Source: Lingula anatina (taxonomy: Eukaryota > Animalia > Brachiopoda). From it: DNA of 64,000 bases. Below, in pieces: positions 49,638 through 52,600 of this stretch (positions are counted from its first letter, which is position 1; the number at the start of each line of letters is the position of its first letter). The position numbers were made by a program, and so were the translations under genes. The stretch covers positions 35,235,967 to 35,299,966 of the forward strand of contig CM120640.1 of NCBI GenBank assembly GCA_051362555.1. Direction: 5' to 3'. A model generated the notes under the pieces. That model was given only the letters and a program-made list of their open reading frames with translations. It did not search any database and was not told where the DNA came from.

Positions 49638-52600
49638 ATGAAGGGCCTGTACGTGCTAGCTTTGTTTGTGTTCGTAAGTGTTACTGGTGCTCCACAAGAA
49701 TGGATCGAACTGAATCCAGCAAGCAAACTGACATTCCATCCTCATGAAATCCGTGCCCAGTGGGAGGAGTTCAAGGCTATCCACAGTAAGTTCAGTTTTT
49801 GTTTGGTCTCCGTGATGGTTGGAAATAATGTACAAAGGCCATTAAAAATTGCTCAACTTTTGCTGGCATCAGTTTAACAAGAATTACCAAAATATACATA
49901 CTAGGTGAATTGTAGATTTATTCTTTTGTTTGTAATTGTAGATTTATTCTTTTGTTTGTTATTCATAAATGTCCTTTTGTAAAAAAGCCAGTTTCTGAAA
50001 AGACATAGGGTTGTAAGTTTTCATCTTTCTTTTTTTAAAGAGAAGACTTATGCTACTGCTGAGGAGGAGGGAAAGAGATTGGATATATTTGCAGAGAACA
50101 TTAAAAAGATTGAAAAGCACAACGCCTTACATAAGCAAGGTCTTAAGTCCTTTACCCTGGGAGTGAATGAATATGCTGATATGGTAGGTTGAACAAATAG
50201 GACAGTTATAAATAGTATAAAAGGAGCCCATCAATGAAAATGTTTTGTACATGCGGAGTCTATGTATAAATCTTTTTTTAAAACTTTTGCATTATTTTTG
50301 CTGAAAAGTGAAAAAGCATTGTTAAAAAATTTTTTTGCAAATTACTGACCATTATTTTTTGAAAATGTGGTGCCCAGGCCTGTGAGTAATTTGGTACACA
50401 TCACAGTTATTTGATGAGAATTACTATAATTTACACAGATGTAAGTGATGGTTCTTTTTTTTTTTTGTTTTTTTTTTTGTCATATACTTGACATGACTGA
50501 TATGATTGTTTTAAATAAGGGAATTGGCAAGAGGAAATATATAGAAATAAATAAATATATGAAGTTCAAAAGTCACCTGACTTTCCATGCTGTTTATATG
50601 ACAATTAATTAAACCAGTTGAACAGTACATGAATATTTTCAACCAAATTTGAAATATAAAACAGTCAAGTCTTTACAAAATCATTTTTTTCATGTTCTTT
50701 TACCCTTTGTAAAGGAGTGGATGCAAATAAGTTCCAGATCATTCTGTACATTCCAGAGAGCTGATGAGTTTGCCAGGGTAATGAATGGTTACAAGATGCA
50801 GAAGAACAAAACAATGGGGTCCACCTATTTGTCCCCAACCTTCACCAAAGTGCCAGACAGCGTGGACTGGAGAACCAAGGGATACGTGACCTCCGTCAAG
50901 AATCAGGTAGGATTCAGAACACAATCTGCGTGAAAATCAAAATTGTGAAAGACTTTGTCCAAGAGGTTTTGGCCATTACTCATGGCTTTGAGCACTTTGA
51001 CGTTTGATGTTGATGATGTAATTTTATTCTTATATTTGGATTATAATAAACCTACATTCAAGTGCTGCTTGAAGAGTGTAATGTGGCTTATGGATAATGC
51101 TTTAATGTCTGATTATTGTAATAATTCAGGAAAGGTTTTTTGGAATCTTTTTTTTTATGCTGTGATGGTTCATTTGTGTGTTTGTAACATCAATTGTTTA
51201 TGAAGTTTTGTATTTCTTTCTTTTACTTTTTAAGAACAGTTTAAAAATTTGCATTCGCATATTTTTATACTCATAGACTTACAGATTTTGTAATAAATAT
51301 TGAATCATTTCAGGGTCAGTGTGGTTCCTGCTGGTCTTTCAGTGCTGTAAGTATGAACAATAATATTGGTGCATTTACCAAACATGTTTGATCTCTTGTT
51401 ATTTGTTTGTTAAGTTGGTCATATAAGCAAGCAAAATGTTCAAAAGGTAGAACCATTAGTGGTAGTTGAAATTTTGTTGTAAAAGTAGTTTTTCTTGTGT
51501 GAAATGACCATCCTTATATCCCTAAAATCTGATTGGTTAAATGCCATGGAAAGTGTATCTAAACATGCTTACAAATTTATTTCCATGCAGGAACAGGAAG
51601 GTGCCTTGTAAAAAAGGTCAGCCTTTTACCTAGTCTGAGTTTTCTAAATGCATTTTATCATTTAATTTATATGAAACTGTTTTTACTAAATAGGCCGGTG
51701 CCTTAGAAGGACAGCATTACAAGAAGAGTGGCAACCTTGTCAATCTTAGTGAACAGAATCTCGTAGATTGTTCCACAAAATATGGAAATCAGGGTTGCAG
51801 CGGTGGTCTTATGGATCAGGCTTTCCAGTATGTGAAAGATAATGGAGGCCTTGATCTTTTGTCATGCTACCCTTACGTGGCTGAGGTATGTGATATTATA
51901 CGTGTTATTCGTAAAATGTGATGTGCTTGTATAGCTGTATGGTTGCTTGCAGACTGGAGCTCTAGAGGGCCAGACCTTCAGGAAGACGGAGGTTTTGGTT
52001 GATCTCAGCGCTCAACAGCTGGTTGACTGCTCACAGAAGTATGGCAACTTGGGCTGTAAAGGAGGCTTCATGAATTGGGCCTTTAAGTATATTAAGAAAA
52101 ATAAGGGGATTGATACTGAAGAGTGTTACCCTTACACTGGGAAGGTAGGTTCGCTTGGAAATGGGTCAGAGGTTACTTGGAGACGTCTTAAGTTAATTAA
52201 GGGGAGCATCTCAAGATGGGAGCAATGGGATGGAAATGCAAACTTTTGGAGAAGGAGTTAATAGTGCACATCCAAACTCTCTTGCACAGCATTGGCATTT
52301 TCAGTCTTTCCAGGTGCTTTTTATAATTTTTCATTTTTAAATTATTTTTATTTCAGTGGTCTTCAGACAGGTTTTCTATTACCTTTGTTTCTTACTAAAG
52401 GCATGTTTTCAAGAAGTATTTTAAGAACATTATTTAAATGTCTGCATGCAGGATTTCCATTATTTATTTAAACCTATATTCCTTATCGTGGTTCATTTCG
52501 GTTTTTATTCATTTGATAATTCATCAGCATTCATTTGAACCTATCTGAATGTGGGTTTAACTCCAGAGTAACATAGATGCAATTTTATATCAGTGTTATT

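What the first reader, a model, noticed from the sequence alone, without database searches (positions are those of the whole stretch)
51694..52144. One cathepsin L gene with two interchangeable substrate-pocket exons: an L-like and an S-like protease by mutually exclusive splicing
Seen: two tandem 192-nt, phase 0-0 exons, both open and with canonical splice sites. They share 37/64 residues by my hand alignment and keep all structural Cys/Gly. The intron between them is only 67 nt (51886-51952); the other introns I mapped exceed 100 nt. Known: this segment carries papain positions 61/67/68 lining S2/S3, and position 67 is Leu in cathepsin L, Phe in S/V and Tyr in K. Exon 5A has L-type [13 protein letters not shown] and NGGLD. 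Exon 5B has SAQ, GGFM and NKGID, as I recall for vertebrate cathepsin S, and is about 5 charges more basic. Inference: splicing gives this invertebrate the specificity or pH-stability diversity that vertebrates gained by gene duplication, and the short intron enforces exclusion sterically. I do not know of this arrangement being described.
Basis: partly seen in the sequence, partly recalled or inferred. Interest (0 to 1): 0.88.

Follow-up and report, generated by a model that had tools for sequence, protein, structure and literature searches.

The report
Swappable active-site exon in cathepsin L
A lamp-shell (brachiopod) gene for the protein-cutting enzyme cathepsin L carries two old, diverged copies of the exon that builds one wall of its substrate groove, and RNA reads show each message uses one copy or the other, so one gene likely makes two proteases with different substrate or pH preferences, although the rarer form is not really a cathepsin S mimic.

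Summary
Confirmed and now supported by RNA. The gene is Lingula anatina cathepsin L1, with only isoform A on record. Exons A (51694-51885) and B (51953-52144) are 192 nt, phase 0/0, 37/64 identical, 67 nt apart. In 8 RNA runs the junction reads were exon4>A 1752, exon4>B 30, A>exon6 2941 and B>exon6 82. No A>B or skip-both joint was listed. B is minor, 0-8% per run. Synonymous sites are saturated (pS 0.93, pN 0.28), and both copies keep a rare Cys88 whose co-varying partner lies in shared exon 6. 'S-like' is overstated: A and B each match human cathepsin S at 6 of 27 differing sites, B scores best with V and L, and 4 of 5 shared-exon S2 residues are not S-type. New here: each exon lost a different near-invariant glutamate (A lacks Glu86, B lacks Glu50) of one charged groove. 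Kinetics, tissues and steric exclusion are untested. This scan earlier noted an exchangeable exon pair in arthropod cathepsin F (another gene and exon; not checked here). New variant of a known kind.

The parts
49638..49785 (+). Exon 1 (coding part): signal peptide and start of propeptide
   Evidence: Joined exons translate to a 345-aa protein differing from the database protein P0126 at 4 residues
50041..50183 (+). Exon 2: I29 propeptide with ERFNIN and GNYD (GNFD-type) motifs
   Evidence: loose read ends before 50757 match this exon
50757..50906 (+). Exon 3: end of propeptide, start of mature enzyme (Lys17, Gln19)
   Evidence: RNA depth and junction to exon 4
51314..51346 (+). Exon 4 (33 nt): catalytic Cys25
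   Evidence: Junction reads to exon 3, A and B
51694..51885 (+). Exon 5A, major form (92-100% per run): mature residues 31-94; Q61/S64/L67/D69/Q70 (papain numbers); keeps Glu50, has Leu at 86
   Evidence: 1752 exon4>A and 2941 A>exon6 reads in 8 runs; 100% match to P0126
51886..51952 (+). 67-nt GT-AG intron between the two copies; no read listed as removing it; all T-n-A branch candidates lie 8-36 nt from the donor; its first 42 nt can fold into a 17-pair hairpin with the donor
51953..52144 (+). Exon 5B, minor form (0-8% per run), not found in any database protein: L61/K64/F67/N69/W70; Ala at 50, keeps Glu86; 5 charges more basic
   Evidence: 30 exon4>B and 82 B>exon6 reads; best database identity 75%, 73% among single-stretch hits
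52832..52997 (+). Exon 6: Cys98, Cys104 (co-varying partner of Cys88), S2 residue Ala133
   Evidence: Junction reads; Cys88/Cys104 covariation 13 of 13
53220..53325 (+). Exon 7: S2 residues 157/158/160, catalytic His and Asn
   Evidence: loose read ends behind 52998 match it
53687..53787 (+). Exon 8 (coding part): S2 bottom residue Gln205, stop

Best explanation
This cathepsin L gene holds an old tandem duplicate of the exon for mature residues 31-94; RNA shows each message takes copy A (most) or copy B (0-8%), with no read listed joining both, and the two proteins likely differ in P2/P3 substrate preference and pH behaviour. SHOWN: both exons are spliced between exons 4 and 6 and not to each other. 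INFERRED FROM SEQUENCE: both copies have long been kept by selection and both diverged faster than the rest of the gene. INFERRED MECHANISM OF EXCLUSION: neither double inclusion nor double skipping breaks the frame, so decay of faulty messages cannot enforce the choice. The 67-nt intron puts A's donor and B's branch point under about 50 nt apart, so U1 and U2 likely cannot bind together; a hairpin over both may help. A is the default. INFERRED FUNCTION: the swap changes the S2/S3 entrance (papain 61, 64, 67, 69, 70), removes a different buried glutamate of the Lys17/Glu35/Glu50/Glu86 groove in each form, and adds five positive charges. The S2 floor and catalytic residues stay shared. B is a cathepsin L with a V-type Phe67, not a cathepsin S mimic.
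For: Junctions in 8 of 9 listed RNA runs: exon4>A 1752, exon4>B 30, A>exon6 2941, B>exon6 82; no A>B or exon4>exon6 joint and no matching deletion listed. B's share is the same at its 5' and 3' junction in study P1 (19/374 versus 68/1190, Fisher p 0.70), as exclusivity predicts. A versus B: pS 0.93, pN 0.28; 27 of 36 identical degenerate residues use different codons; 0 of 20,000 neutral simulations at 1 change per site kept 37 identities. Cys88 occurs in 13 of 361 relatives, always with Cys104; both exons keep it. Against 102 dereplicated relatives, the rest of the mature enzyme ranks at the median, yet for both exons the segment-minus-rest identity is lower than in all 102. Glu50 is in 360/361 and Glu86 in 360/361 relatives; B lacks the first and A the second. 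In cruzain these line one groove with Lys17, Glu35, Asn47 and Tyr91, proposed by simulation to be pH-sensitive (PMC6347273, passages and Discussion part 1). Position 67 is a hinge between S2 and S3 (PMC5917446 passages). A donor-to-branch limit of about 50 nt is cited in PMC7969005 and PMC5740500 (passages).
Against: No protein, peptide or kinetic evidence for B. B is rare: no B junction in run X7 and about 0.6% in study P3. It breaks five columns that are at least 90% conserved (G43, S47, E50, N52, D71), where only 1 of 102 relatives breaks four and none five. Faster change in both exons also fits relaxed selection. In Fasciola cathepsin L1, changing residue 67 alone did not switch P2 preference (PMC5917446). 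The 50-nt limit comes from vertebrate work; the short-intron size range of Lingula was not available, and many invertebrates splice introns of this size (own knowledge). The hairpin is not significant for the whole intron (z -1.57; z -2.90 only for a window trimmed after seeing it). Exon trees of 64 columns do not place A and B as sisters, and no AU test rejects any grouping. Tissues of the runs are unknown, and only 6-30% of each run was read.
Confidence: 0.65

Rival explanations
1. B is a tolerated, low-level spare exon: kept by weak selection for a folding-competent enzyme but giving no useful new specificity; the two forms are nearly equivalent.
For: B is 0-8% of junction reads and about 0.6% in study P3. 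Catalytic residues and most S2 residues are shared. In P3 reads B carries 4 amino-acid changes beside 5 silent ones, including Ala50Val and Leu63Met (papain 61).
Against: Silent sites between A and B are saturated while the frame, splice sites, Cys88 and 37 residues persist. A shows a similar ratio in reads (3 changed codons, 4 silent), so B is not visibly more relaxed, though counts are small and 63 variant rows were hidden. B's share differs about ninefold between studies, as regulation would give (confounded by tissue, population and library).
Confidence: 0.2
2. B is a true cathepsin S equivalent (S-type specificity and neutral-pH stability).
For: B shares Ala50, Phe67, Ile77, Lys81, Ile83 and Thr42 with human cathepsin S (alignment, counted by eye). 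Ala50 is in 0 of 361 L-type relatives. An AU test does not reject B with the S/K clade (p 0.46).
Against: A matches S at as many differing sites (6 versus 6). B scores 81/76/70 bits with V/L/S. The S/K clade excludes both exons with 97/86 support, and the same AU test does not reject A with S/K either (p 0.49). Papain 61 is Leu, not Lys. Shared-exon positions 133, 157, 158 and 205 differ from S. An SAQQ motif also occurs in an unrelated papain-family protein (P0565).
Confidence: 0.08
3. The B junction reads come from a second, near-identical gene copy or haplotype that has only B, and the window's B is not used with the window's other exons.
For: The window's isoform A differs from the database protein at 4 residues outside the exon, so more than one haplotype or copy exists. 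Short reads cannot phase the whole transcript. The whole genome was not available.
Against: The window holds A and B in one stretch with intact splice sites. B reads of runs X1-X3 show no listed difference from the window's B and join the same exons 4 and 6. Unspliced reads cover both flanking introns in X4, X7, X8 and X9.
Confidence: 0.05

Closest known systems
Homologous mutually exclusive exons (MXEs) at functional sites (PMC7954323, abstract read)
   Same: Tandem homologous exons of equal length whose differing residues lie at or near a functional site and are expected to keep the fold and change specificity.
   Different: That survey covers five other organisms; the words cathepsin, protease and peptidase do not occur in its main text, and five related terms were not found in its 6 supplements held as text.
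coq-2a/coq-2e of helminths (PMC7434440, abstract read)
   Same: An invertebrate enzyme whose two splice forms change what it makes; the paper has a methods section on mutually exclusive exons.
   Different: A prenyltransferase with function proved by genetics and a form found across rhodoquinone-making species; here a protease, untested, and seen in one species.
OGDH exons 4a/4b and alpha-tropomyosin exons 2/3 (PMC7969005, passages)
   Same: Exclusion attributed to a branch point under about 50 nt from the upstream donor.
   Different: In OGDH the intron is longer with mapped distant branch points; here the whole intron is 67 nt and the branch point is only predicted.
Arthropod cathepsin F exon pair
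   Same: An exchangeable duplicated exon inside the catalytic domain of a papain-family (C1A) protease, with a short intervening intron suggested in one note.
   Different: Different gene (F, not L), different segment (catalytic Asn, not the S2/S3 wall), said to be widespread and annotated. One paper search with the recalled fly gene name listed no paper holding it among the top 15.
Human cathepsins L, V, S, K and Fasciola cathepsin L paralogues
   Same: Specificity varied at papain positions 61/67 within one fold (PMC5917446 passages; model of isoform A matches procathepsin L 1cs8, TM 0.87/0.94).
   Different: Those are separate genes and also differ at 133, 157 and 205; here only residues 31-94 are exchanged, within one gene.

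Membership tests
Papain family C1A, cathepsin L-like | Peptidase_C1 domain with I29 propeptide | tested here: met
   PF00112 E 5.5e-87 and PF08246 E 2.8e-17; model pLDDT 92, best fold match procathepsin L
Papain family C1A, cathepsin L-like | Gln19, Cys25, His159, Asn175 intact; ERFNIN motif in propeptide | tested here: met
   Aligned to human procathepsin L; ERFNIN read from the sequence (motif definition recalled); all lie in shared exons
Homologous mutually exclusive exons | Tandem, same length and phase, homologous, both open | tested here: met
   192 nt, phase 0/0, 37/64 identical
Homologous mutually exclusive exons | Each exon spliced to both flanking exons | tested here: met
   exon4>A 1752, A>exon6 2941, exon4>B 30, B>exon6 82 reads
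Homologous mutually exclusive exons | Not joined to each other, not both skipped | tested here: met
   No such joint listed in 8 runs (listing needs 3 reads from 2 starts and a 1% share); about 27-30 A>B reads would be expected in X1 and X3 under independent inclusion
Homologous mutually exclusive exons | Both proteins made and functional | not testable with these tools
   Only indirect: pS 0.93 versus pN 0.28, Cys88 kept
Sterically enforced MXE pair | Donor-to-branch distance under about 50 nt and causal for exclusion | tested here: inconclusive
   All T-n-A candidates lie 8-36 nt from the donor; branch point not mapped; limit unknown for brachiopods
RNA-structure (docking/selector) MXE | Competing long-range pairings between flanking introns and exons | tested here: not met
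   None of 8 region pairs beat shuffles (best 4 of 20); no cross-species covariation test possible
Cathepsin S (for isoform B) | Phe at papain 67 | tested here: met
   B has Phe; so do cathepsin V and 30 of 361 L-type relatives
Cathepsin S (for isoform B) | Lys61, Gly133, Val157, Phe205 around S2/S3 (read from human S; their role is recalled, except 157 and 205, listed as S2 positions in PMC5917446) | tested here: not met
   B has Leu61, Ala133, Leu157, Gln205
Cathepsin S (for isoform B) | Groups with the vertebrate S/K clade | tested here: inconclusive
   Best tree excludes B from S/K (97/86), but AU p 0.46 does not reject it
Cathepsin S (for isoform B) | Stable and active at neutral pH | not testable with these tools
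   Needs enzyme assay

The most novel reading that the evidence does not exclude
One lysosomal protease gene switches, by a single regulated exon choice, both the S2/S3 wall and the buried ionisable groove (Glu50 kept and Glu86 lost in A; the reverse in B), producing two enzymes for different pH compartments or substrates: a natural, isogenic domain-swap that does by splicing what vertebrates do with separate cathepsin genes.
Probability: 0.35. Interest if true: 0.7.

Novelty: new variant of a known kind. Interest (0 to 1): 0.52.

Why it matters
Cathepsin specificity is normally diversified by gene duplication. Here a 64-residue module covering one wall of the groove is exchanged on an otherwise identical enzyme, so the two natural isoforms form a ready-made controlled experiment on what positions 61-70 and the Glu50/Glu86 groove contribute to P2/P3 preference and pH behaviour. 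It also adds an RNA-supported, apparently unannotated isoform and a compact 67-nt test case for how exclusion works in a phylum where splicing is little studied. The principle itself (homologous exons swapped at an active site) is well known, and this case is so far seen in one species at low abundance.

Tried and rejected
No whole genome was held, so paralogue search and the intron-size distribution could not be done. No indexed RNA holder was listed; 8 of the 9 same-species raw runs were laid instead, X6 was not. Search for the same duplication elsewhere found none: 34 of 80 metagenome loci hold this exact 192-nt AG..GT exon (8 distinct peptides; 10 loci with both neighbouring exon regions) and none has a second copy; no pair among 493 protein pairs at least 90% identical outside the segment diverged inside it, other than A/B; 15 multi-stretch hits were fused gene models or near-identical repeats. 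No other brachiopod or phoronid sequence was identified, so the age of the pair is open. Long-range pairing was no better than shuffles. The exon tree was unresolved (one search stopped on a script error and had mislabelled one fish domain, fixed in 46; 2 of 43 chosen relatives and none of the metagenome exons entered the tree). Ten paper searches listed no report of this arrangement; I saw listings and abstract starts only, and most subscription papers are not held. The Lingula genome paper has no word cathepsin or alternative splicing in its main text (supplements not read). MetazExp includes Lingula and calls MXE events automatically, so the event may sit in that database unseen. One fly MXE paper was not held. 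The predicted structure (isoform A only) gave no coordinates to measure distances from; isoform B was not folded.

Full report
Observation. The two exons are as described: A at 51694-51885 and B at 51953-52144, each 192 nt, phase 0/0, open, AG/GT-bounded, 37 of 64 residues and 110 of 192 bases identical, net charge -3 and +2. The intron between them is 67 nt; the other seven introns are 222-687 nt. Joined with the other exons, each gives a 345-residue preproenzyme in which the exon encodes mature residues 31-94. Exon A matches a database protein at 100%, named cathepsin L1 of Lingula anatina, a cluster with one member sequence. The window's isoform A differs from it at 4 residues elsewhere. 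Nothing closer than 75% to exon B was found (73% among single-stretch hits), so B appears unannotated. The protein has Peptidase_C1 and I29 domains, and its model (pLDDT 92) matches procathepsin L best.

Splicing. Nine same-species raw RNA runs from three studies were listed; eight were laid, 6-30% of each being read. Summed junction reads, counting allele-shifted rows with the exon4>A joint, are exon4>A 1752, exon4>B 30, A>exon6 2941 and B>exon6 82. No A>B joint, no exon4>exon6 joint and no matching deletion was listed in any run. Listing needs 3 reads from 2 starts and a 1% share, so rare joints can hide. But if the exons were included independently, nearly every B message would also hold A, and about 27-30 A>B reads would be expected in X1 and X3. 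B's share is also equal at its two ends (study P1: 5.1% and 5.7%, Fisher p 0.70). B is minor: 5-6% in P1, about 1.3% in P2, 0.6% in P3, and without a junction read in X7. The difference between studies is large, but tissue, population and library type are confounded and unknown to me.

Selection and age. Between A and B silent sites are saturated (pS 0.93, pN 0.28; 27 of 36 identical degenerate residues use different codons). A neutral copy at one change per site kept 37 identities in 0 of 20,000 simulations and stayed open in 5%; at 0.5 changes per site 5 of 20,000 did. Both exons keep Cys88, found in 13 of 361 relatives and there always with Cys104, which lies in shared exon 6; this suggests that both must fold with the same exon 6. 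Both also replace Ser47 (356 of 361) by Asn or Asp. Read differences give 4 amino-acid and 5 silent changes in B and 3 changed codons and 4 silent changes in A; coverage of B was 2-8 reads in the divergent runs and 63 rows were hidden. Against 102 dereplicated relatives the shared part of the mature enzyme ranks at the median, while both exons are more diverged relative to it than in any of the 102. This fits specialisation of both copies but also relaxed selection. The exon is a single 192-nt unit in 34 of 80 metagenome loci, none with a second copy, and no other isoform-like pair appeared among 493 close protein pairs. A 49-row, 64-column tree did not join A and B and rejected no grouping, so a local duplication rests on position, equal boundaries and the shared rare residues, not on the tree.

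What differs. In papain numbers the loop reads Q61/S64/L67/D69/Q70 in A and L61/K64/F67/N69/W70 in B. Position 67 is described as the S2 entrance and a hinge to S3, but changing it alone in Fasciola cathepsin L1 altered P3 rather than P2 preference (PMC5917446, passages). In cruzain, Lys17, Glu35, Asn47, Glu50, Glu86 and Tyr91 line one groove whose protonation is proposed, from simulation, to be pH-sensitive (PMC6347273, passages and first part of the Discussion). I mapped these by matching number and residue, not by aligning cruzain. B's segment charge (+2) exceeds that of all 102 relatives (maximum +1), though mature B stays acidic (net -6, computed pI 5.2, against -11 and 4.7).

How exclusion likely works. 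Both double inclusion and double skipping keep the frame, so message decay cannot explain it. All T-n-A branch candidates lie 8-36 nt from A's donor, under the limit of about 50 nt cited for vertebrate cases (PMC7969005 and PMC5740500, passages). Whether that limit holds in Lingula is unknown. A hairpin can cover donor and branch region, but its significance depends on the window chosen. Long-range pairings were no better than shuffles. B's acceptor is not clearly weaker than A's by pyrimidine count (9 of 17 each), so why A is the default is unexplained.

Comparison and novelty. Homologous MXEs that change residues at functional sites are a known kind (PMC7954323 abstract; coq-2, PMC7434440 abstract; OGDH). 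Ten paper searches listed no such case for cathepsin L or Lingula; the library lacks most subscription papers, I did not read the Lingula genome paper's supplements, and an automatic splicing database covers this species.

Verdict. The exon pair is real, spliced one at a time and old (about 0.95). Both products are probably functional (about 0.8). They probably differ in specificity or pH behaviour (0.65 overall). The S-like label is unlikely (0.08). New variant of a known kind; interest 0.52.

Noticed in passing
window 51856-51861 (exon A, mature 85-86): The major isoform has Leu-Leu in place of Thr85-Glu86 (Glu in 360 of 361 relatives). No read difference is listed at codon 86, so it is not an assembly error; one run has Arg85.
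   Followed up: partly
window 51878: Nearly all reads in the 8 runs have A where the window and the database protein have T (Val92 versus Glu, or Lys in one run): a private allele or an assembly error in the reference.
   Followed up: no
window 51865-51867, 52124-52126 and exon 6: Extra Cys88 and Cys104 co-occur in 13 of 13 relatives that have Cys88 (one more has Cys104 alone), predicting a fourth disulfide in a subset of cathepsin L proteins.
   Followed up: partly
window 51884-51928: A 17-pair, G-U-rich hairpin can cover A's donor and the candidate branch adenines (-14.1 kcal/mol; z -2.9 for the trimmed window, -1.6 for the whole intron).
   Followed up: partly
window 51932-51934: A second in-frame AG 18 nt upstream of B's acceptor; no read listed as using it.
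   Followed up: partly
window 49638-53787: The window's isoform A differs from database protein P0126 at 4 residues (137, 303, 304, 340); runs X7-X9 differ more from the window than the others, suggesting a diverged population.
   Followed up: no
L001-L067 (34 loci): The same 192-nt phase 0/0 exon is a single exon in other cathepsin L genes, so its boundaries are older than the duplication.
   Followed up: yes
window 3239-3820 (-), 36950-37792 (+), 38218-38577 (-): Neighbouring frames hit Pfam choline/carnitine acyltransferase, SH3 domains and, below its cut-off, ribosomal protein S15.
   Followed up: no
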